Origin: a virus
Strand: one strand, 5' to 3'
Virus record (IMG/VR): IMGVR_UViG_3300037851_000831
Location: 32,783-96,782 of that record
DNA length: 64,000 bases
The position numbers were made by a program, and so were the translations under genes. The notes beneath the pieces were generated by a model. That model saw only the letters and a program-made list of their open reading frames with translations. It was not told the DNA's origin and searched no databases. The stretch's first letter is position 1. Every line of letters begins with the position of its first letter. Shown here one piece after another: positions 5,702 through 64,000 of this stretch.

Positions 5702-5995
5702 TCAGTGGATTTTTCTTAGAAGGTCGAGACCCCGGTCAATCTCTGCACGCTGCTTCTCCAGTTCCTTGATCTTTCGATCCACCCAGCGAATTTCAAATTC
5801 CGCAATGGAGTAAACGTACTTGAGAGGCAAGCCATCAGACAACCATATGCCGCCGATCTGCTGATCGCCGTTAAGATCGAAAAAACCGGTAAACTGAAAC
5901 GCTTCCCAAATGATGCGTTTCGCATTTATGTATCGGCGACCCATGTAGTACTCGCCGATACGCAGTGTGTCGCGGTCTATTTCTTTGAAGGTCAT
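5702..5995 (-). CDS. hypothetical protein
   Basis: Overlaps RNA ligase stop. Confidence 0.6.
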   Translation of the reverse strand: MTFKEIDRDTLRIGEYYMGRRYINAKRIIWEAFQFTGFFDLNGDQQIGGIWLSDGLPLKYVYSIAEFEIRWVDRKIKELEKQRAEIDRGLDLLRKIH

Positions 5996-7095
5996 TTTAG
6001 AATCTGGAAGACGAGTTTCTTGGTGTCATCCTCCGCGAGCGGCTTGCCGTCGAGAAGTTTGAACGCCATGCCCGAGCGGTTGGTGTTGCCCCACGCCTGA
6101 ATGATCGCCAACGCCGCATCCTTGCGCGGCTTGCCCTTCAACGGCTCCACGAAGGAACGCATTGACGAAAGAATCTTCTCAACCTCCTTGATGGAGTCGC
6201 AAATCTTGGAGATATGCGGAACCGCCATCGTCGCAATCTCGAAGTCGAAGGTATCCGTCAGGAAGTTGAAGAAATCCATGTACGAGAGGTAGCCACCCCG
6301 CTGCTTTGACTCACCGAGGTAAACGTCAAGAACTTTCTCGAACGAAGAAATCTCCGACTTCGCACGGTGGAGATAAAGATACTCCGCGCCCTTCACCTTG
6401 CGAACGTGCTGGTCGTGGTCGAAATAAACGCACAGACCCTCCTTACCCGCGAACGCCTCAACCGACGCCTTCATCTCTTCGATGGAGTTGTAGTTATAAC
6501 GCTGCGGGCGACGGAGACCAAACTCCGCTGCAATCTTGTCGAGTTCACGCTGCGACGTATAAGAATAGTCGTCGTGGTTGATGATGTTCGTGAGAACGAT
6601 ATCAACATCCGGACCGTAGTCGATAACGATACGGTTGGTCGGAGACAACCACTCGAAGACGAGCGTCGCCTTGCCCGCAAAACGCTGCTGGAGACGAAAG
6701 AGTGCGTACGAATACTTCTTCTCGATCAGGTCAATCTCCTGACCGTTCGCCTGCTCACGCGCATTGGTCGTGCCACGGGTACGCCAAATCCAAAAATCCA
6801 AGAGCCACGACAAAAGAAGGGTTGAACCGTCGAGTTTCTCCATCAGAGAAGAACCGTTCAGGTTGGTCGGGATCGGATCAATGTCAGGCTGCTCTTCCCA
6901 ATTGAAGAACTTCTTGTAGGAAAGGGAAACCGGCTCACCATCCTTCGTCCAGACGGATGAGCGGAAGATCAGGTTGTGCTTGTTCCACTTCGCGCCGATG
7001 TGGATCGGCTGAACCAAATAGCACTCAACACCCGCAATCGTATGCGGATGAATCATAAATGACTCACGGTCAATCGTGTCGAGGTTGATTTTCAT
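5992..7095 (-). CDS. T4 Rnl1-like RNA ligase
   Basis: KFFNW, motif I EKLDGS, RTRG, VFEW, EGLCV, RKVK...Y; start reassigned to MKINLD after promoter at 7126. Confidence 0.85.
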   Translation of the reverse strand: MKINLDTIDRESFMIHPHTIAGVECYLVQPIHIGAKWNKHNLIFRSSVWTKDGEPVSLSYKKFFNWEEQPDIDPIPTNLNGSSLMEKLDGSTLLLSWLLDFWIWRTRGTTNAREQANGQEIDLIEKKYSYALFRLQQRFAGKATLVFEWLSPTNRIVIDYGPDVDIVLTNIINHDDYSYTSQRELDKIAAEFGLRRPQRYNYNSIEEMKASVEAFAGKEGLCVYFDHDQHVRKVKGAEYLYLHRAKSEISSFEKVLDVYLGESKQRGGYLSYMDFFNFLTDTFDFEIATMAVPHISKICDSIKEVEKILSSMRSFVEPLKGKPRKDAALAIIQAWGNTNRSGMAFKLLDGKPLAEDDTKKLVFQILK

Positions 7096-7134
7096 GTGGA
7101 AGGAGTGTGGGGATTTTTTTGAACTTGTCAAGCC

Positions 7135-17936: not shown

Positions 17937-20900
17937 TTAGAGAAGTTCTTTGATGCTGGCAGGAATGCCGTATTTGGCGATAAAGGGAGCGGTGATGATG
18001 AACTCGTCGGAGGTCATCGGATCATAGATGCTGGAGTCATTCTCGGCATCCCGATAATACAGGGGGCGGGGTGCCTTCGACATGTCGAGCGTGAATTTAC
18101 CATCGTCGTAAATCCATATCGTGATGAACTCCTGCACGATATACGTCAGCGAGAGTTTTCCCGCAGCCGTAATCTCGGCTTCGATGTTCTTCATGCTCTC
18201 ATCGAAGTCGTCTTCGTTCGAGTCGTGCTTGTTCATGGAAGACACTCTACCACGATTTCAAAAAAAGTCAAGGGGTTGGGCGAAGATTTTTCATCACCCA
18301 ACCCCTAAAAGTGCCACTACGGATGTATCAGGCAAACATCAACAGCCACGTAACGCCAGACATCACGAGGAAGGCGAAGCCGTAGAGAATGAGATACTCC
18401 GACTGCTCGGAGGTCGTCTCATATTCCCTCGAAACCACGGTCTTTCCATCGGCTGCAAAATTCTCCCGGCGAAGGCGCTTGAAGTTGATCGCATTGCGCC
18501 AAAGGGTAACGGCGAAGAGAGGAACCCACACAATCGCCAGCCCAACACCAAGGATGACGCGAATGAGGTCTTTTCCAATCACCTTGTAGCCGATGATTGC
18601 CATCGTGAACATACCAACCTTCGTGTCAGCGATGGAGTCGGCGTGCTTCTCGACAGCGGTCAGCGCAGCATCAGCAGCCTTACCGAACTCTTCACCCATA
18701 CCGACCCACTTGCCGTAGGTCTCGATCTTGGCTTGAGTACGTTTGGCTTCCAACTCCAAACGCTGCTCCTGTGTGAGCATGTTCTCCGGAATCGTGACCG
18801 TTTGGGTCTGCTGGGCGAATGCCGAGACCGCGAGGATCAGGGCGAGGAACAACGATGTGATGTATTTCATAGGATTGTTAGCGAGGAGGTTTGGGGTTGG
18901 CTGGAAGGTATGTCTGCCCCGGAAGTGCTTCGTGGATAATTACCGGTTTCCTGTTGGTATGGTGCTTGTTCCACAGGGTCATAATAAAGGCACGCGCCTC
19001 TTCCAACTTCAGATACTTTCGGTCGGAAAAACCCTTACCTACGTTGTACCACATTCCAAAAACCCTGTGTTCGGGGTAGAACCAACCATCAAACTCACGG
19101 ACACGATGGCGTTCAAAGAATTTCTGTTTTGGTGTGAGAGGCATCTTATTTGGTATTTGAAGGTGGAAGTAAAAGTTTTCCGCTTGGAAACACTTCGTAA
19201 ATGTGAACCTTTTCCGAAATGGCTTCCGATTCTTCCAATCGGTATTTCGCGATGAGGTACTCCCGAGCCCCTTCGAGGGAGAGATAGAATATCACTTCGC
19301 GATGATCGAGAAGGTATATCCAGAACAACCCGAGAATTTTCTTCTGCGGGTAATACTTGCCCTTCTCGCAGCGAATGCGGTGCCGACGATTGAACTGCTC
19401 CTGAAATGTGAGTTTACTTCTGCTCATTGCGTGGGTCTTTCCCGGTGTGGAAACCGGTCTCATCCTCGTAGCCTTCCGGCGTGTTGTTCTTCCACCACGA
19501 CTTGACGGAGGGCCAAACCGCCCACACCGACGAGAGGAAAATGAAGGCGATGATGAGATAGAGAGGTGCGTTGGAACTGTTCATGAAACCGAGTAGATCA
19601 GGTTTTGAAGAAAAGTCAAGCCTCACCACACATTTTTATAGCGTTCCTTCAGGATGTGAAGAATGACGCACGACACCTGCCAAGAGATATGCCGCTGAGT
19701 GATCAGGATGTTCTCAAGGTGATTCGTATCCAACTGGATGAGCGGTTTGTCAACCCGAGGCTGGTCGCCGTTCGGACCGAAGGTGCCCCACTTGGTTGTC
19801 ATGGCAAGAGCACCAAGATCATCCTCCGACAGCGACGCACGGAACGATTGGATGTTCTTTGCCAACTTGTCGAGACCGGTTGTGTCAACCTCCTGCTTGG
19901 GCAAATTAATCACCGGCTTGCTTGTGGCATGAGGAACCGGCGAACGATAGACGGGCTTGCCGTCTTCGATTTTTTCAATCTCCAGACGAACAGCACTCAT
20001 CTTGACGATAACGGGTCCATCGATCTTTGCCTTCTCAAACTGCACGGAACCGAACTTGTTGATGTTGTAGTTCCAGTCGTTGTGAAGGTCGTGCTGGCTC
20101 ACCCGGTCGGGTAGACTGAACTCCACATACTCGAAGTCAACGCCCTTGCGCGCATCCGATGGAAAGCCAGCCTTCAGATAGTCGAAGCCGCCGTCGATGT
20201 AGTATTGCTGCGTTCGGTCATAATGGAAATCATGACGGTCGCGAGAATAAATCAATTCTCCCGTGGAGTAGACAAGAAGACCGAAGTGACGGAGACGGTT
20301 AATCGACATAGACATGTACCTCACGTTGATGTTCACTCAAGGCAATCACTCGCCCGCCAAAATTGTTGGGACCACCATCACACCAGTTGACTAAGGTCTG
20401 CTCGCCCGGCCATTCCGTTCCCGGCACGAGTCGCGTCACAAGATACTTGTGCGTCGCGCCGCGATTGGAGGTCATGTCTTTACGGAAAGACTTAGACACT
20501 TCTGGATTGTAGTCGCCGAGCATTTTAGCAACCGGTGAAAAGAGAGAGGCACTCGCACTCTTTGCCATGGATGGAGATATGTTTACGAAGATCAGTGAGG
20601 AGATCATCTTTGGTGTATTTCATACTGCGACAGAGGTCAACGAGAGATTCACCCTGAGGTCCGGGGAATCCCATAACGAAATCGCCGTCGTCGGTTTGCT
20701 CGCCGTTCTCGACAGCGGTGCCGATGTCAGCAAGAGTCAGAGCACCATCCTCCATAGAGAAGGCGAGTGCGACATAAAGGAAGGGAGTCTTCTTGAGTTT
20801 CTTTGCCATGATGATTACTTGAGGTGAGTGCAAACGGTCTGCACGATCCAGATGATGCCGGTGATGCCTGCGCCGAGCCCCATGAGCCACGCGAACACAC

Positions 20901-25087: not shown

Positions 25088-26307
25088 ATGCACATGAAGA
25101 CGATCCCGACATTTGCAGACGCGCACGAGTGCGTTGAATGGATTGCTCAGAACACGGTTGCCGACGCCGACGCCGAGGCGAAGGCAACTGCCCGCTCCCG
25201 TCAGGCTGCGACGAACAAGGAGGAATCCTTCGAGCGTTGCGACACTGACGGGTTCCTGTCGCAGTGGGCAGAGGGTCTCGCTTCCGACAAGTATCGGATG
25301 GAGGCTGAGATTGCCCGCAATGGTGGTCTCGCCTGCTTCGAGGTGCTCGTCAATGCGGCGACGGGTGAACTCGTGAGCACCAAACTCTTCCGGTTCCCGA
25401 ATCGCTTCGCACACTGGAAGACCACATCGACGTGGCTCGTTTCCAACATGCCCGGAGTTAAGTGGGTGACGAATTTCGTCAACCGCAACCAGTTCTCCAA
25501 GAAGGGGTTGGAACTGCGTTTTGCCCCACTTCCCGCATTTGTCTCTTACTCCGATCCGCTCAACCGGTGCCCCGAGCCGAAGGGTCTCGGCATGGCGCAC
25601 GCCGTTCGCCCGATGATACTCGTTGATCATCACAAACTTGAGAAGGAAGGCGTGACGGTCTGAGTAATCTCCTCTAAGGGGTGTCATGAGTATGACACCC
25701 CAAGGGGCTTGACTTTTTGTAAAAACCAACCATCATCCAACACATGTCAAATTTCCGAATCGAATCCAATACCGAACATTCAATCGTCATGGTGGCACGT
25801 AATGCGCGCATCCTCGTGTCTTACGGCGATATCGTGGCTGTGCATTACTTTGCGCAGCGGTGTGCATGTGGAAGCATGAAGGAACCGAAAACGTGCATCA
25901 AAGAGAATACTTCCAAGACGACCACGAAATACATCAACCGGTTTCTCGCCGATATCGGATTGACCCGTCGGGACGCAGAATTTCATACCGATGATTTCTT
26001 CACGACCTTGGATTTGATTCTCGACCGTTCGCCCAACTGAAAAATCTCATTTTCAAAAAGTCGGTAAAAAAAGTCGGTAAAATTTCACCTTATGGCAAAG
26101 AAGAGCAAACCTACTCCCATCACACCAACTGAGGAGAATCTATTTCAGATTCCCGTCGTTCTCAATGTGCAAGCCGCTACCCGAGAACAGGCTGTGGCAA
26201 TGGCTGAAATGGCGTTGAAGGATATTCACGCCGACTTCGGTCGCTACATCAAGGGTGAGTTTGACAACCTGTGGGATCACTACGAGAGGTTGACGCGAAA
26301 AAAGTAA
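25088..26307 (+). other. three hypothetical genes (25088-25663, 25744-26040, 26092-26307)
   Basis: ORFs with promoters at 25059 and 25709. Confidence 0.65.
25661..25707 (+). repeat. tandem 21-bp TGAGTA...C(C/T)AAGGG motif, pair 1
   Basis: 25661-81 and 25687-707; second pair at 33425-45 and 33454-74. Confidence 0.65.
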
Positions 26308-26349
26308 GAAACCTCTTGACTTTTGGGAAAAGCGGTACATACTTATCCC

Positions 26350-26668
26350 TTCACTCAAGTAAGTGTTCTTTTCAATTTCCATCCGGATAGGAAAGGTGCA
26401 GTAGCACCCTCTGGTAGATCGGTCCCGAAAGGATGACTGCCAGTGGCTCCCCTCGGGGTTCAGGTCATGCATGACCACTACTGCTGGTAGTGCCTTGGAA
26501 ACTATAGGGCTACCTTGGTAAGATTCATCGCGAATCCTCAAGAAGATAAGAAGACAGAGCCGCTCAGTTGATGAAGTTAATGAGGATAAGCGGAATAGGA
26601 ACGACAACAACGACCCCCATCGAAATCGTTCGCCCTCGAAAAAGGGAAAGCGGTGAATCCCTTACCAA
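26350..26668 (+). ncRNA. candidate structured RNA (about 320 nt)
   Basis: Promoter TTGACT 26316 / CATACT 26338, boxA-like TGTTCTTTTC 26364; hairpins GGTGC/GCACC, CTGGTAG/CTGCCAG; 17-bp long-range stem 26515-31 with 26650-68. Confidence 0.7.
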
Positions 26669-26732
26669 AATAAAAAAACAAAATCTATCTGAAATGGCTT
26701 GACTTTCTGTTTCGAGTATCCGATACTCAACA

Positions 26733-27205
26733 CGTTCTTTGATCACTTTCACTTTACGACGCCTCACAGCAATAGTAAAAACTATAAATGCAAACTGCCG
26801 CAAGGCATGGTTGCCCCGAACCATAAGAGGGGATAGGGGATATGGCTCCCGACGAACTGCCTAGCGTCGTGTAATTTCAATTTCTCCATTACGCCGCGAA
26901 ATGGCAAATGGATTGTGGGTCAGTTCGGCTTTCATCCGATTTTACCTCCGAGTCAGGTCTGTTGTCGCGCTAACATCCCCGCTAAGGGCGATACTTGCGA
27001 GAACCGTTAACCTTCGGAGCGACCCCGTGTTAGACACACTGATAGCACCCTGCATGACCCGTGTGATTGGTCTGTAAGTCGGGCGGGGTTCTGATTCCCC
27101 GTAAGGCGTTGGCTGAAAAGGCTATATGATAAATGAGATAGATTCAAGTCGGGTAGGTGTGGAACGGTAACCAGTCCGGTCCAAATTCGAATCGCCTATT
27201 CGCCA
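26733..27205 (+). ncRNA. candidate structured RNA (about 470 nt)
   Basis: Promoter TTGACT 26699 / GATACT 26722, boxA-like CGTTCTTTGA 26733; no plus-strand ORF; many stems; ends TTCGAATCGCCTATTCGCCA before a terminator. Confidence 0.7.
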
Positions 27206-27237
27206 AAGACCCCGAAGGGACGCCTTCGGGGTTTTTT
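27206..27237 (+). terminator. intrinsic terminator
   Basis: GACCCCGAAGG-GACG-CCTTCGGGGTT plus T run. Confidence 0.9.
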
Positions 27238-27286
27238 GTTGTCCGGGTATTGACTTTTTTCAGAAACCCGTCAACCTGTTCCGACC

Positions 27287-27709
27287 ATGGCACGCATCCG
27301 CAACAAAGACCTCTGCGACCACATTCCGGAGGCAGTAGATATCATCAAGGATATCCGCAAGGCAATTGACTCTGCTCACGTGACGAGTGAGGATTCCAAT
27401 GACTTCATGGGCGACTACCTTGCCCCGCTCGGATTCCGTGAGCATATCTATGCTTCCGGGGTGCCTATCTGGATCAACACCAAGCGTGGTCTGATCGTCA
27501 AGAATCCTTTCTTCGTATCCGACTATGCTCCTGAGTTTCGTACGCCTACCATCTTCTATCGCGACTACGTTATCCAGCGCAAGGTCGGGCGTCTCGACCT
27601 TCGCAATGCCCTACGCCTGCTTCGCAACATGCTGAATCCCACCGTCTACGACCTTCATCGGGGTAACGTTGGCTGGCTTTCAGGTCAGCCAGTTCTTCAT
27701 GATTGGTAA
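27287..27709 (+). CDS. minimal protein-kinase-like fold protein
   Basis: LIVK, DLHRGNVG catalytic-loop-like motif and terminal VLHDW. Confidence 0.5.
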   Translation: MARIRNKDLCDHIPEAVDIIKDIRKAIDSAHVTSEDSNDFMGDYLAPLGFREHIYASGVPIWINTKRGLIVKNPFFVSDYAPEFRTPTIFYRDYVIQRKVGRLDLRNALRLLRNMLNPTVYDLHRGNVGWLSGQPVLHDW

Positions 27710-57868: not shown

Positions 57869-58294
57869 ATGACAACTGCCATCTATCCAAACAGAGTAGC
57901 CGACAAACAGAAAGTCGAAATGCTGCTCTCTCTGATGGAAGAGGGCAATGGCTCCACACGCTTTTTCACCAAGAAGGGAACACTCTTCGCTACGGGATAT
58001 ACGCGGGTTGTCTATGGCGACCACGGTCCTTATGTTGAATTTGACCGTGTACACATCAAATCCGAATTGGTACATAAGTTCGGCAATCGCGTTCCGCCCA
58101 AGGATGCATTCTACATTTGGCTCGTTCCCACCGATGGTAGCGGACTGAAGGTCTATGACCAAAAGCGTGACGTAAAACATTTGAAGAATCCTCCCAAGGG
58201 AGGATTCATGGGAAATCGGTCTGAAGGATACGCCGACTACAAGGTTGGTATGATCTATGTCAGCCCATATGACTTTGGAGAAATCACATCATGA
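57869..58294 (+). CDS. hypothetical protein
   Basis: GYTRVVYGDHGPYVEF...YADYK; coupled to the coaD fusion. Confidence 0.7.
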   Translation: MTTAIYPNRVADKQKVEMLLSLMEEGNGSTRFFTKKGTLFATGYTRVVYGDHGPYVEFDRVHIKSELVHKFGNRVPPKDAFYIWLVPTDGSGLKVYDQKRDVKHLKNPPKGGFMGNRSEGYADYKVGMIYVSPYDFGEITS

Positions 58295-59373
58295 AGAAAA
58301 TCGCACTATACGCAGGCAGTTTCGATCCTGTCACCAACGGGCACCTTGATATCATCAAGCGTGCACTTCAGTTGTTCGACAAGGTTGTTGTCGGCATCGG
58401 CGTCAACCCAAACAAGACCGGCACGTTCAAGCCATTTCAGCGTCGTGGATTCATTCTGACGACATTGCACGAATACTACGCCACTGGTAGACTTGCGGTT
58501 GAGGAATATAAAGGATTGACCATCGATTATGCCAAGATGATCGGTGCCAAATACATCATCAAAGGTCTCCGCACCACACAGGATTTCGATTACGAGAGGC
58601 TTATCAACGACTTGAGTCTCACACAGCAGCGGGACATCGAAACGGTTCTTCTATTCTCCGATCAGAAGTTGGGTCATGTCAGTTCTAGTGCAGTCAAGGA
58701 ACTTGCCAAGCACGTTGGTTTGATTTCTGATATGGTTCCTCCGATTGTTCGGCGTGCACTTGAAAATTACGAAGGTCGCTCTATCGTTGGTGTAACCGGA
58801 ACGATTGGCTCCGGCAAGACCACGCTATGCAAGCGTCTGCAAACCACGACGAATGCACACTATCTCAACCTCGACGAAATTGCACATGAACTTCGTGAAG
58901 GTGAAGGTGGGTTGTGCGATGAAGTTCGTGACAAGGTGTATCTGGAATTCGGCATCCTTGACAAAAAGGCTATCGGCGAGGCGGTCTTCGGCAATCCCGA
59001 AAGGATGCAGAGGCTAAATGATATTTACCGGGAGCCTATGATGACCCTACTTCGCAATAAACTTTCTTCCTTGCGCGGAACAATCCTTCTGGAAGGTGCA
59101 TTGCTCTTGGAGTTTGGGTGGGAATTTCTCTGCTCAAGTGGTAATCTCATTCTGTTGACTACTCCAAACGATGAAGAGCACACTGCACGCTTAAAGAAAC
59201 GTGGGTACACCGATGAACAGATTGAAAAAAGGAAGGGCTCACAACTTTCCTTTGAAGCCAAAGACAGGCTCGCAACTGCTGCGCTCAAAAAAGGAGACTT
59301 GACACGGGTTATCTACTACGACAGTTTACGTGGTAACGCCGATATGCTCGCCGAAACAATCCGATCACTATGA
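58291..59373 (+). CDS. coaD: phosphopantetheine adenylyltransferase fused to dephospho-CoA kinase (CoaD-CoaE)
   Basis: YAGSFDPVTNGHLDII, GLR..DFDYE, SSSAVKE; then GVTGTIGSGKT P-loop, D.IAH, VFGN, EGALLLE. Confidence 0.9.
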   Translation: MKKIALYAGSFDPVTNGHLDIIKRALQLFDKVVVGIGVNPNKTGTFKPFQRRGFILTTLHEYYATGRLAVEEYKGLTIDYAKMIGAKYIIKGLRTTQDFDYERLINDLSLTQQRDIETVLLFSDQKLGHVSSSAVKELAKHVGLISDMVPPIVRRALENYEGRSIVGVTGTIGSGKTTLCKRLQTTTNAHYLNLDEIAHELREGEGGLCDEVRDKVYLEFGILDKKAIGEAVFGNPERMQRLNDIYREPMMTLLRNKLSSLRGTILLEGALLLEFGWEFLCSSGNLILLTTPNDEEHTARLKKRGYTDEQIEKRKGSQLSFEAKDRLATAALKKGDLTRVIYYDSLRGNADMLAETIRSL

Positions 59374-61910: not shown

Positions 61911-62560
61911 TGATCCGTTTGAAATCACTTCTCTTGGAAAACTTTGCGGGAAGTTTGGCAAAAAATCATGACTTCTTCATGAGTGCTCCGTCGCCTGTTT
62001 TTTGGGCAATGGTTCCGTTCATGAACAAGCAAGACACGGGTGCCGACTGCTCTCTACTGTCTTCAGTTATTGTTCTGAATGCCATTCGACACTTGGAAGA
62101 AAGCGAAGGCGAACTATTGACTCCAGAATCTCTTCTATCCGAGACCGAACTTGATGAATGGAAGAAAGCAACCGAGCCGGGTGGTGATGGAGTCAACTTG
62201 GATGAACTCAAAGGCTACCTTGAAAAATCTGTGCAAAAACTGTGCGGAAAAGGCTGGAAGGTATTGGTTGAAAGAGACCTTACGAAATTGACGCCACGCT
62301 TGGAATCTGTGCAAAAAGCGGGAAATCAGTTTGTCATCGGAAACTTCAACGCTGCCATGGTCTATGATAAAGGAAGTGGTGGGCACTATTCGCCATTTGC
62401 AGCATACGATGTTGACAACGACCTAATTTTAGTGTTCGATGTTGACAGAACCCGTTATGTGCCCTCTTGGGTGCCTATGGATGACATGCTAAAGGCTATG
62501 GAATCCATTGATTCTGACGCGGAAGATCACAGAGGATACATCGTTGTAGAAAAATCATGA
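61910..62560 (+). CDS. phytochelatin-synthase-like papain-fold peptidase
   Basis: Q....DC...S...VLNA, GGHYSP..AYD...D..LVFDV, RGYIVV (Cys-His-Asp triad). Confidence 0.85.
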   Translation: MIRLKSLLLENFAGSLAKNHDFFMSAPSPVFWAMVPFMNKQDTGADCSLLSSVIVLNAIRHLEESEGELLTPESLLSETELDEWKKATEPGGDGVNLDELKGYLEKSVQKLCGKGWKVLVERDLTKLTPRLESVQKAGNQFVIGNFNAAMVYDKGSGGHYSPFAAYDVDNDLILVFDVDRTRYVPSWVPMDDMLKAMESIDSDAEDHRGYIVVEKS

Positions 62561-64000
62561 AGTTAAAGACAATACTAATGGAAGGAGTCAAGGAGAAGGC
62601 TGCGGTTGACTATCTCAAGCAGGCTATTCAAGGAACTGAATGGCAGGGCAAGGTATTGCAGGCTGGTGGTTCCGTGCGCGACGAGTTGATGGGTATCGAT
62701 CCAAAGGATATCGACCTCGTTGTGAATGCACCCGATGGTGGTATCAAATTTGCCGAGTGGATTACAAAGAAAATGGGCAACTACAAGGAAGGTAGCAACC
62801 CTGTCATTTTCCCTCGCTTCGGAACTGCAAAGTTCAACATGGAAGGCGTAACGCACAATGGTCAAGACCTCAGCGGTATTGACATTGAAGCCGTAATGCC
62901 ACGTAAAGAGAAGTACACAGATGGTTCGAGAAAGCCCGAAGTTACTGGTGGAGAACTTGCTGACGATGTTATGCGTCGCGACTTCACCGTGAACAGCCTT
63001 CTCAAAGATTTGACAAGCGGAGAAATCCTCGACCTCACCGGTATGGGAAGAGAAGACATCAAGAAGGGTATCGTAAGAACCCCACTCGATCCTGATGTGA
63101 TTTTCTCGGATGATCCTCTCCGTATGCTTCGTGCAATTCGCTTTGCTGTAAAGTATAGTTGGGATTTGCCGATGTTCATGTTGAAGGGCATCAAACGCAA
63201 CGCATCCAAGTTGCAAAATATTTCAGCCGAGCGCATCAGTGAAGAGTTGAACAAGATGCTCATGACAAAGACACCTGAAAAGGCTATCAAACTTATGAAG
63301 GTTGTCGGATTGCTTGAGTATGTTATTCCAGAACTGAAGAGTGCAATCGGCATGGGTCAAAACAAGTATCACCAAGACGATGTGTTCAAGCACACCCTTG
63401 CCGTGTTGAGCAAGACACAGCCTGTTCTCGTACAGAGATTGATGGGCTTGTTCCACGATATTGGAAAGACCGTAACCAAGAGCGTGACACCGACAGGTGT
63501 TCACTTCTATGGTCATGAGATGGCGGGTGAGAAGATGGTATATGATATCATGGGTCGCTTGCGCTATCCGAAGGAACTCATCGATGCCGTTGCGCTGGGT
63601 GTTCGTCAGCACATGCGATTGAAGAGTGCCGGTGATGATGCTGTGGGCTTGTCTGACAAGGCGCTTCGCAAATTCAAGGTTGATATGGGCGACCAACTTG
63701 AGAACGTACTCGGATTGATGCACGCCGACAACATCAGCCATGCCACAACGGCAACCATGCCAAACCAAATTGCCAACATTCGTAAGAGGCTTGAAAACCT
63801 CAACATGGATGTAAACGCAGGAAAGCCAAAACTTCCATTGAACGGCAAAGACCTTCAGGCGATGGGAATCCCACCCGGACCGATTTACAAGGATATCCTC
63901 GAAAAAGTAACTGATGCGTGGTACGAAAACCCCAAACTCACCAAAGAGGAAGCACAAGAGATTGCCAAAAAAGTGGCATCCCAAGATTCCGGGAAAATCG
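62557..64000 (+). CDS. cca: CCA-adding tRNA nucleotidyltransferase with HD domain (runs off window edge)
   Basis: Not in ORF track. MKLKTILMEG...GGSVRDELMGIDPKDIDLVV, RFGT, RRDFTVN, DDPLRMLRAIRF, SAERI, HDIGK. Confidence 0.92.
   Translation, partial: MKLKTILMEGVKEKAAVDYLKQAIQGTEWQGKVLQAGGSVRDELMGIDPKDIDLVVNAPDGGIKFAEWITKKMGNYKEGSNPVIFPRFGTAKFNMEGVTHNGQDLSGIDIEAVMPRKEKYTDGSRKPEVTGGELADDVMRRDFTVNSLLKDLTSGEILDLTGMGREDIKKGIVRTPLDPDVIFSDDPLRMLRAIRFAVKYSWDLPMFMLKGIKRNASKLQNISAERISEELNKMLMTKTPEKAIKLMKVVGLLEYVIPELKSAIGMGQNKYHQDDVFKHTLAVLSKTQPVLVQRLMGLFHDIGKTVTKSVTPTGVHFYGHEMAGEKMVYDIMGRLRYPKELIDAVALGVRQHMRLKSAGDDAVGLSDKALRKFKVDMGDQLENVLGLMHADNISHATTATMPNQIANIRKRLENLNMDVNAGKPKLPLNGKDLQAMGIPPGPIYKDILEKVTDAWYENPKLTKEEAQEIAKKVASQDSGKI

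What the first reader, a model, noticed from the sequence alone, without database searches (positions are those of the whole stretch)
26316..27237. Second ncRNA locus: two tandem promoter-boxA units without ORFs ending in a strong terminator
Seen: promoters at 26316 and 26699, each followed by a boxA-like GTTCTTT, then about 320 and 470 nt of stem-rich sequence with no credible plus-strand ORF, then an intrinsic terminator at 27206-37. The first unit has a 17-bp stem (26515-31 with 26650-68) with a plus-strand G-U pair. The second begins with TTACGACGC...GCGTCGTGTAA and ends in a hairpin followed by GCCA. Among the promoters I checked, boxA-like elements followed only those of the two ncRNA loci. 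Inference: two or more novel structured RNAs.
Basis: partly seen in the sequence, partly recalled or inferred. Interest (0 to 1): 0.82.

Follow-up and report, generated by a model that had tools for sequence, protein, structure and literature searches.

The report
Two phage non-coding RNAs with boxA-like leaders
A 0.9-kb gene-free stretch of a large uncultured contractile-tailed phage most likely encodes two structured RNAs of no known family, each behind a phage promoter and an rRNA-operon-like "boxA" word, and near-identical copies of both occur in root RNA-sequencing libraries.

Summary
This includes both promoters, both GTTCTTT words, the 17-bp stem with one G-U pair, the leader hairpin, the 3' hairpin followed by GCCA, and the terminator.

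The interpretation as novel structured RNAs is supported:
- Both promoters belong to the phage's own CTTGAC family. That family normally puts a leaderless ATG at offset 36. Here there is no start codon and no conserved ORF.
- Rfam, ARAGORN, Pfam and PHROGs give nothing.
- Two root metatranscriptome runs from one study hold short, deep contigs on exactly two segments: RNA A (26368-26614) and RNA B (26902-27124 onward).
- Natural variants preserve structure. There is one compensatory pair and three wobble-type changes. A 109-nt insertion sits in a hairpin loop.
- Indels break the only sizeable ORF.

GTTCTT(T/A) follows only the four promoters of the phage's two ORF-free loci, and none of 47 leaderless gene promoters. 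In three of the four it sits at the predicted +1.

Still inferred: that this word acts as a Nus-factor boxA, where the mature RNA ends lie, and what the RNAs do.

The scan had noted this same stretch before, in an overlapping window of the same genome, but not on other DNA.

The parts
26316..26343 (+). Promoter P1: -35 TTGACT, 16-nt spacer, -10 CATACT
   Evidence: It is a member of the phage-wide CTTGAC(T/A) promoter family, but no ATG follows it.
26352..26365 (+). Small 4-bp hairpin (CACU/AGUG) at the 5' end, just before the first boxA-like word
   Evidence: MFE fold. The same layout (5' hairpin, then boxA) is described for B. subtilis rrn leaders in PMC13753749.
26365..26379 (+). boxA-like element 1 (GTTCTTT followed by TCAATTTC)
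   Evidence: With one gap it matches 12 of 15 positions of my own extension of the E. coli rrn boxA word, GCUCUUUAACAAUUU. PMC13753749 prints only UGCUCUUUAACA; the trailing AUUU is from memory. It lies at offset 50 from the C of CTTGAC.
26368..26614 (+). RNA A core, about 250 nt
   Evidence: RNA-library contigs of 247 nt (26368-26614) and 229 nt (26376-26604) at 95-99% identity, with k-mer depth 168 and 195. There is no Rfam hit.
26408..26446 (+). Hairpin in RNA A with natural covariation
   Evidence: G26414-C26440 becomes A-U. U26415-G26439 becomes C-G. U26419-A26436 becomes U-G. The 7-substitution variant keeps -74.1 kcal/mol on the reference structure, against -64.7 +/- 4.4 for random sets of 7 substitutions (p = 0.012).
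26515..26668 (+). 17-bp long-range stem (26515-31 with 26650-68) enclosing 118 nt
   Evidence: It has one G-U pair on the plus strand (U26528-G26653).
26699..26727 (+). Promoter P2: -35 TTGACT, 17-nt spacer, -10 GATACT, preceded by an A-rich tract
   Evidence: The GGCTTGACTTTCT context recurs at five other promoter sites in the record as an exact 13-mer, and in shorter form at several more. The -35 box is also present in a DNA-run relative (loose end at 26718).
26734..26745 (+). boxA-like element 2 (GTTCTTTGATCA) at the predicted +1 of P2
   Evidence: It lies at offset 36 from CTTGAC, the same offset as the ATG of 27 leaderless genes. It resembles the B. subtilis boxA consensus AUGAUCUUUGAAA.
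26756..26875 (+). Leader hairpin, with a 7-bp perfect core ACGACGC/GCGTCGT, enclosing about 100 nt
   Evidence: A DNA-run contig covers 26718-26837 with 2 differences.
26875..26884 (+). Second copy of TTTCAATTTC (a degenerate boxA-like word) at the start of RNA B
   Evidence: The 9-mer TTCAATTTC occurs only 4 times in the record, at 26371 and 26876 among them. In both RNAs a 5-bp hairpin with a 9-nt loop follows it.
26902..27205 (+). RNA B, at least 300 nt
   Evidence: RNA-library contigs of 400-403 nt cover 26902/26917-27034 and 27044-27124, then run on for 76-84 diverged nt. Their k-mer depth is 33-61. There is no Rfam hit apart from terminator look-alikes.
27027..27048 (+). Variable hairpin of RNA B
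   Evidence: In the RNA-library relatives, 109 nt replace 27035-43. These positions are essentially the loop of this predicted hairpin; 27043 is its closing pair.
27151..27205 (+). 3' domain: 9-bp stem (27151-59 with 27193-201) followed by GCCA
   Evidence: It has three plus-strand G-U pairs. The soil-run variant 27200 U>C turns G27152-U27200 into G-C.
27206..27237 (+). Intrinsic terminator
   Evidence: (I3: 14-nt arms, 93% complementary, 4-nt loop) followed by T6.

Best explanation
The locus is a self-contained non-coding transcription unit of a large contractile-tailed phage.

Host sigma-70-type RNA polymerase starts at two promoters of the phage's own CTTGAC family. At other promoters of this family the transcript begins with the ATG of a leaderless gene. 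Here it begins with, or shortly reaches, a GUUCUUU word and has no reading frame.

Two stable structured RNAs result: A (about 26365-26620) and B (about 26900-27205). The unit ends at one strong intrinsic terminator.

Inferred steps:
- The GUUCUUU(N)CAAUUU words act like rRNA-operon boxA sites. They would load NusB-S10 on the elongating polymerase, so that these long untranslated transcripts escape Rho. The same logic applies to rRNA operons and CRISPR arrays.
- The leader is trimmed away, including the 26756-26875 hairpin.
- RNA B is matured to the acceptor-like stem plus CCA at 27202-05. The phage's own CCA-adding enzyme could maintain this end.

What the RNAs do in trans is unknown. My best guess is that they are abundant scaffolds or decoys in host take-over, acting on RNA or translation machinery. 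This is suggested, not shown, by the phage's RNA tool-kit (Rnl1, Rnl2, CCA-adding enzyme, tRNA).
For: - Promoter family and missing start codon.
- No known RNA family, tRNA or tmRNA.
- No protein family for any ORF in the region.
- Contigs from RNA libraries lie on A and B. They are only 229-403 nt long but have k-mer depth 168-195 (A) and 33-61 (B), in libraries of 0.42-0.46 Gbase. Contaminating DNA of a phage of roughly 200 kb at that depth would make up several percent of the library and would assemble into long contigs.
- Structure-preserving natural variation: one compensatory double change and two wobble changes in hairpin 26408-46 (p = 0.012 against random substitutions); a G-U to G-C change in the 3' stem; and a 109-nt insertion placed in a hairpin loop.
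- Coding is contradicted. Only 2 of the 7 substitutions fall on third positions of the minus-strand ORF. A 1-nt insertion at 26916 and a net +100 nt break the 58-aa plus-strand ORF.
- Strand: the G-U pairs in the 17-bp stem and the 3' stem would be A-C mismatches on the other strand.
- boxA-like word: it follows only the 4 promoters of the ORF-free loci and 0 of 47 gene promoters. Three copies lie at the exact +1 offset. It resembles the published E. coli and B. subtilis consensus.
- Independent unit: terminator, and the next gene has its own promoter.
- Phage context: tail sheath; Rnl1, Rnl2 and CCA-adding enzyme.
Against: - There is no alignment of independent homologues. Covariation rests on one or two near-identical natural variants.
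- Folding energies are only modestly better than shuffles, and for RNA A alone they are not significant (z = -1.2).
- The RNA evidence comes from Logan contigs of one study. Contigs cannot give strand, ends or expression level.
- A boxA starting at +1 is unusual compared with rrn leaders. Binding to NusB-S10 is untested and the host is unknown.
- The two fragmentary relatives found through the helicase share the promoter style but show no boxA-led unit and no match to these RNAs.
Confidence: 0.75

Rival explanations
1. The transcripts are real, but the GUUCUUU word is not a Nus-factor boxA. It would instead be a phage-specific 5'-terminal signal, such as an initial-transcribed sequence that tunes promoter escape, or a tag read by a phage protein or processing enzyme. 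The RNAs would then be made without antitermination.
For: - Three of the four copies start at the predicted +1. That is closer to the start site than boxA in the rrn leaders described in PMC13753749.
- The word is followed by a second shared word, TCAATTTC. That second word recurs at the start of RNA B without a full GTTCTTT.
- The related phage fragments lack it.
Against: - The extended word resembles the published boxA consensus.
- Copy 1 follows a small 5' hairpin, as in B. subtilis rrn leaders.
- Untranslated transcripts of 0.5-0.9 kb are natural Rho targets, so an antitermination signal is expected.
Confidence: 0.3
2. The region encodes one or more small proteins, or is a decayed gene. 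The RNA-library contigs would then be fragments of mRNA.
For: - Mechanical ORFs exist: 58 aa on the plus strand at 26901, and 156 aa on the minus strand at 26140-26610.
- The contig of RNA B starts next to the ATG at 26901.
Against: - No family promoter precedes either ORF, and no leaderless ATG follows P1 or P2.
- Pfam and PHROGs find nothing.
- Natural indels of 1 nt and +100 nt break the 58-aa ORF.
- Seven substitutions are clustered in 40 nt with none in the next 160 nt. Only 2 of the 7 fall at third positions of the minus-strand frame.
- The minus-strand ORF overlaps a plausible plus-strand gene.
Confidence: 0.05
3. The stretch is a replication origin or other DNA-level control region. 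Its promoters would make primer or R-loop transcripts rather than functional stable RNAs.
For: - It is ORF-free.
- It lies about 2 kb from the point where transcription diverges (about 24.25 kb).
- It has slightly lower GC (0.467) and two promoters.
Against: - It has no iterons, and the only direct repeats are short two-copy matches.
- There is no break in GC skew at the locus.
- Natural variants preserve RNA helices, including G-U to G-C changes.
- A strong terminator closes the unit.
- Deep short contigs occur in RNA libraries.
Confidence: 0.05

Closest known systems
rRNA-operon leaders, and boxA-led CRISPR arrays or suhB, with Nus-factor antitermination
   Same: - A strong promoter is followed closely by a (G)YUCUUU...CAA word, and once by a 5' hairpin and then that word.
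- The transcripts are long, untranslated and highly structured.
- There are tandem promoters.
- A second, degenerate copy of the word lies before the downstream RNA, much like the spacer boxA before 23S.
- Long stems flank or enclose the RNAs.
   Different: - The products are not rRNA, tRNA or crRNA.
- The word sits at +1 in three of four cases.
- No binding or antitermination was tested, and the host is unknown.
- The element is carried by a phage.
Lambda nut / HK022 put antitermination sites (from my own knowledge of these systems)
   Same: A phage RNA element placed just after a promoter that would make the polymerase resistant to termination. Lambda nut contains a boxA.
   Different: - No boxB-like hairpin or N-like protein was identified.
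- The element precedes non-coding RNAs rather than gene operons.
- It resembles the rrn-type (boxA-only) arrangement more.
T4 stable RNAs species 1 and 2 (rnaC, rnaD) in the tRNA cluster (from memory, not tested here)
   Same: Phage-encoded, abundant, structured RNAs of 100-plus nt with unknown function. They are made from multi-RNA precursors in a phage that also carries tRNAs and RNA-repair enzymes.
   Different: No sequence or structure comparison was possible. The RNAs here are larger, sit apart from the tRNA, and have their own promoters.
Large phage-associated structured RNAs in Rfam (GOLLD, ROOL, HEARO and others)
   Same: Hundreds of nucleotides long, multi-helix, and phage-borne.
   Different: cmscan against all 4227 Rfam 15 families gave no match, even at E <= 10, apart from terminator look-alikes.

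Membership tests
boxA (NusB-S10 antitermination site of rrn type) | Sequence match to the consensus (E. coli UGCUCUUUAACA; B. subtilis AUGAUCUUUGAAA) | tested here: inconclusive
   The four copies read (U/C)GUUCUU(U/A). Copy 1 matches 7 of 12 positions of GCUCUUUAACAA ungapped, or 12 of 15 with one gap against my extended word GCUCUUUAACAAUUU, whose last four letters are from memory. Copy 2 reads GUUCUUUGAUCA, against GAUCUUUGAAA. The resemblance is good, but the word is short.
boxA (NusB-S10 antitermination site of rrn type) | Located in the promoter-proximal leader of a long untranslated transcript, and not after ordinary gene promoters | tested here: met
   It follows 4 of 4 promoters of the two ORF-free loci and 0 of 47 leaderless gene promoters.
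boxA (NusB-S10 antitermination site of rrn type) | Binds NusB-S10 and suppresses Rho-dependent termination | not testable with these tools
   This needs biochemistry or reporter assays. The host is unknown.
boxA (NusB-S10 antitermination site of rrn type) | The same word occurs in the host's own rrn leaders | not tested
   The host is not identified. The only hint is that one neighbouring protein hits only actinobacteriophages.
Any Rfam 15 family (tmRNA, RNase P, 6S, SRP, group I/II introns, GOLLD, ROOL, riboswitches and others) | Covariance-model score at or above the family's gathering threshold | tested here: not met
   The best hits are at 22 bits against a cut-off of 49, and all lie on the terminator hairpin.
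tRNA / tmRNA | Cloverleaf or tRNA-like domain recognised by ARAGORN | tested here: not met
   There are none at default settings. At 80% thresholds only mismatch-ridden models appear, plus a 'permuted tmRNA' with an implausible 26-aa tag.
Sigma-70-type promoter of the phage's CTTGAC family | -35 CTTGAC(T/A), a 16-17-nt spacer, and a -10 box with A2 and T6 | tested here: met
   The start sites themselves were not mapped.
Intrinsic (Rho-independent) terminator | GC-rich hairpin followed directly by a U-run | tested here: met
   14-nt arms, a 4-nt loop, then T6.
Structured non-coding RNA (generic) | Base pairs maintained through compensatory change across homologues | tested here: inconclusive
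   There is one compensatory pair, three wobble-type changes, and a loop-located insertion. p = 0.012 for structure retention. All of this comes from near-identical variants, and no deep alignment was available.

The most novel reading that the evidence does not exclude
A phage has copied the design of an rRNA operon to mass-produce its own non-ribosomal structured RNAs. That design includes tandem strong promoters, boxA at the very 5' end, processing leaders and stems, and a shared terminator. The products would be two new RNA classes. One would end in an acceptor-like helix plus CCA, serviced by the phage's CCA-adding and ligase enzymes. Both would act in trans on the host's RNA or translation machinery, or on its tRNA-directed defences.
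Probability: 0.3. Interest if true: 0.8.

Novelty: new variant of a known kind. Interest (0 to 1): 0.62.

Why it matters
Phage-encoded structured RNAs of several hundred nucleotides are few, and almost none has a known function. This locus offers two such RNAs with clear transcription signals. Near-identical copies lie in environmental RNA libraries from plant roots. Small shares of the stretch's words also turned up in soil, freshwater and other runs, and only two of those DNA runs were laid (an outdoor and a soil metagenome). If the GUUCUUU word works as boxA, this would be a phage using the host's ribosomal antitermination machinery to make non-coding RNAs rather than to read through genes. 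That claim can be tested directly with NusB-S10 binding and Rho-termination assays. The same phage also shows a very regular leaderless promoter-plus-ATG architecture, so predicted transcript starts can be read from the sequence.

Tried and rejected
**Known families**
- Rfam at gathering and at E <= 10: only terminator look-alikes.
- ARAGORN at default: nothing. At relaxed thresholds the hits were judged spurious.

**Homologue hunting**
- blastn and tblastn against GenBank phages: no DNA match. The helicase is at most 25% identical over most of its length to any cultured phage.
- Neighbouring proteins in IMG/VR: no relatives.
- The 140-aa neighbour is an orphan among 5.8 billion proteins.
- Exact 20-21-mers from RNA A and RNA B: three scans of viral contigs and one scan of 185,579 genomes found nothing.
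- The single metagenome scan returned only a chance 21-mer hit, L003, with no flanking similarity.
- The helicase alignment in genome contigs found nothing.
- More distant relatives G002 and G003 (43-44% helicase identity) share the leaderless CTTGAC promoter style. They have no match to the RNAs and no promoter-boxA unit. They are 9% and 13% fragments, so this says little.
- Streptomyces phage Satis: no promoter-boxA pattern.
- The earlier-findings index holds no look-alike in other genomes.

**Internal comparisons**
- No paralogy between RNA A, RNA B and the other ORF-free locus beyond the short shared words.
- Origin reading: no iterons and no skew break.

**Read laying**
- In the RNA runs, the flanking protein genes (25900-26355, 27268-27600) and the P2 leader (26641-26900) had no cover. 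I therefore do not use it for 'only the RNAs are expressed' or for leader removal.
- Contig ends near 26368, 26614, 26902 and about 27205 are noted only as hints. Both RNA runs belong to one study.

Full report
**Context**

The window is bases 32783-96782 of a 96.8-kb IMG/VR virus record. CheckV rates it 47% complete, so the genome is probably near 200 kb. The phage has a tail sheath, so its tail is contractile. It also encodes Rnl1- and Rnl2-type RNA ligases, a CCA-adding enzyme with an HD domain, two DNA methylases and a tRNA-Gly.

It is an orphan lineage:
- The region has no DNA match in GenBank phages.
- The gene just downstream has no relative among 5.8 billion proteins.
- The best IMG/VR relatives share only 43-44% helicase identity.

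**Observation**

The promoters are more than generic consensus hits. The record holds 91 CTTGAC(T/A) sites. Of these, 54 have an ATG 33-44 nt downstream, with a sharp peak of 27 at offset 36. Most genes therefore have their own promoter and a leaderless mRNA. P1 (26315) and P2 (26698) carry this family's -35 box and a CATACT/GATACT -10 box, but no start codon follows either.

**The boxA-like word**

GTTCTT(T/A) occurs 40 times in the record, so the word alone means little. Its position does carry weight:
- Only five CTTGAC sites have it at offset 28-68.
- Four of these are the four promoters of the two ORF-free loci: 26315, 26698, 16185(-) and 17058(-).
- Three carry it at exactly offset 36, the predicted +1.
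- None of the 47 promoter + leaderless-ORF pairs has it.
- At P1 it lies 14 nt further on, right after a 4-bp 5' hairpin. This is the layout reported for B. subtilis rrn leaders (PMC13753749).

The word extends to GUUCUUU-UCAAUUU, GUUCUUUGAUCA and, in the other locus, GUUCUUUACAUCAAUU. These resemble the published consensus UGCUCUUUAACA (E. coli) and AUGAUCUUUGAAA (B. subtilis). A degenerate copy, ending in the same TTTCAATTTC, precedes RNA B.

Function as a NusB-S10 site remains an inference.

**Not coding, not a known RNA**

- Rfam 15 gives nothing at gathering score. At E <= 10 the only hits near the RNAs are look-alikes of the terminator hairpin.
- ARAGORN finds nothing at default settings. 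Its relaxed hits are poor.
- The ORFs in the region (58 aa plus strand; 156 and 86 aa minus strand) match no Pfam or PHROG family, and no family promoter precedes them.

**RNA-library and variant evidence**

Ten public runs hold parts of the stretch. In two root metatranscriptome runs of one study:
- Contigs of 247 and 229 nt lie on 26368-26614 and 26376-26604, at k-mer depth 168 and 195.
- Contigs of 403 and 400 nt lie on 26917/26902-27034 and 27044-27124, then continue for 84 and 76 diverged nt, at depth 61 and 33.

Such short but deep contigs are not what contaminating DNA of a large phage would give. I take this as good though indirect support for abundant RNA species A and B. It is one study, and contigs give neither strand nor ends.

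The variants are informative:
- In RNA A, seven substitutions cluster in 26414-26453, and none is listed in the remaining roughly 160 nt of the contig.
- G26414-C26440 becomes A-U. U26415-G26439 becomes C-G. U26419-A26436 becomes U-G.
- One substitution lies in a hairpin loop, one in a junction, and one opens a terminal pair.
- Scored on the reference MFE structure, the variant keeps -74.1 kcal/mol (reference -78.0). Random sets of seven substitutions in the same span give -64.7 +/- 4.4, so p = 0.012.
- In RNA B, 109 nt replace 27035-43, essentially the loop of the predicted hairpin 27027-48.
- A soil-run variant turns G27152-U27200 into G-C in the 3' stem.
- A 1-nt insertion at 26916 and the net +100 nt destroy the 58-aa ORF.
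- Only 2 of the 7 RNA A substitutions fall on third positions of the minus-strand frame.

G-U pairs in the 17-bp stem and the 3' stem fit the plus strand only.

DNA runs (an outdoor and a soil metagenome) hold near-identical pieces. These include P2's -35 box and the start of the downstream gene, so the phage context is conserved.

**Anatomy and proposed mechanism**

The unit reads, in order:
1. P1
2. 5' hairpin
3. boxA-like word 1
4. RNA A, followed by a 17-bp stem and an A-rich tract
5. P2
6. boxA-like word 2, at +1
7. Leader hairpin
8. Degenerate boxA-like word
9. RNA B, with a variable hairpin and a 9-bp 3' stem plus GCCA
10. Terminator

RNA A has no terminator of its own, so P1 transcripts should read through to 27237. 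The next gene has its own promoter at 27249, so the unit is not that gene's leader.

- Shown: the signals, the absence of coding, and copies in RNA libraries with structure-preserving variation.
- Inferred: Nus-type protection from Rho, leader removal, and maturation of RNA B to a CCA end that the phage's CCA-adding enzyme could maintain.
- Unknown: the trans function. I guess at scaffolds or decoys acting on host RNA or translation machinery, or on tRNA-directed defence. I give that specific guess low odds.

**Limits**

- No diverged homologues could be obtained. Three pattern scans of viral contigs, one of genomes and one of metagenomes found nothing useful.
- The distant relatives are small fragments without a match.
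- Folding z-scores are modest.
- The host is unknown. A neighbouring protein hits only actinobacteriophages, and leaderless genes would fit Actinobacteria, but this is only a hint.

**Verdict**

It comprises two new phage non-coding RNA families in an rRNA-operon-like unit with a boxA-like 5' word. It is a new variant of known kinds (phage stable RNAs; boxA-led untranslated operons). Interest is moderate to high, limited by the unknown function and the thin comparative data.

Noticed in passing
whole record; examples at window 25058, 25708, 27725, 48975 (+) and 421, 1354, 2640, 19620 (-): Nearly every gene has its own promoter, (GG)CTTGAC(T/A)-N16/17-(-10 box), with the ATG at offset 36 (27 sites; 54 sites at offsets 33-44). 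These are leaderless mRNAs with no Shine-Dalgarno sequence. The related fragments G002 and G003 share this style.
   Followed up: partly
same promoters, for example -10 TCTACT/TCTAAT (25058, 1354), TCAACC (12327-, 27249+), CATAGT/CATACT (13548-, 48975+, 26315+, 16185-): The promoters fall into at least three classes by spacer and -10 sequence. These may be temporal classes. The RNA promoters belong to the class closest to sigma-70 (CATAGT/CATACT/GATACT).
   Followed up: no
window 15587-15691 (-): Near-threshold match to the wcaG RNA motif (38.2 bits against gathering 42, E = 4.5e-5). It lies just upstream of the promoter of the Rnl2-type ligase gene.
   Followed up: no
window 24341, 30513 and 32859 (+); G002:C1 about 20377-20440 (L092): A G-rich element (GGGTAGGGGACCGGAGGCTGGAC-like) lies 60-75 nt after three promoters that lack an ATG. 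A similar word (GGATAGGGGACCAGGGG) follows an ATG-less promoter in the distant relative G002, so it is conserved across phages.
   Followed up: partly
window 15500-17100 (-): The other ORF-free locus has two family promoters (17058, 16185) and three boxA-like words (17022, 16919, 16149). It also holds tRNA-Gly, a weak second tRNA-like hit (15848-15919) and several hundred nt of stem-rich sequence.
   Followed up: partly
window 26603-26618 and 27228-27243: A 16-nt complementarity (81%) links the end of the RNA A contig with the 3' side of the terminator and the bases after it. In read-through P1 transcripts it could enclose the whole P2-RNA B unit, like an rRNA processing stalk. It may be chance.
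   Followed up: no
window 26055-26080: An exact tandem AAAAAGTCGGTAA x2 lies between two small genes just upstream of the locus.
   Followed up: no
window 5995-7131 (-), 14436-15509 (-), 62557-63999 (+), 58291-59373 (+): RNA and cofactor tool-kit: an Rnl1-type ligase, an Rnl2-type ligase, a CCA-adding enzyme with an HD domain, and a fused cytidylyltransferase-like / dephospho-CoA-kinase protein.
   Followed up: no
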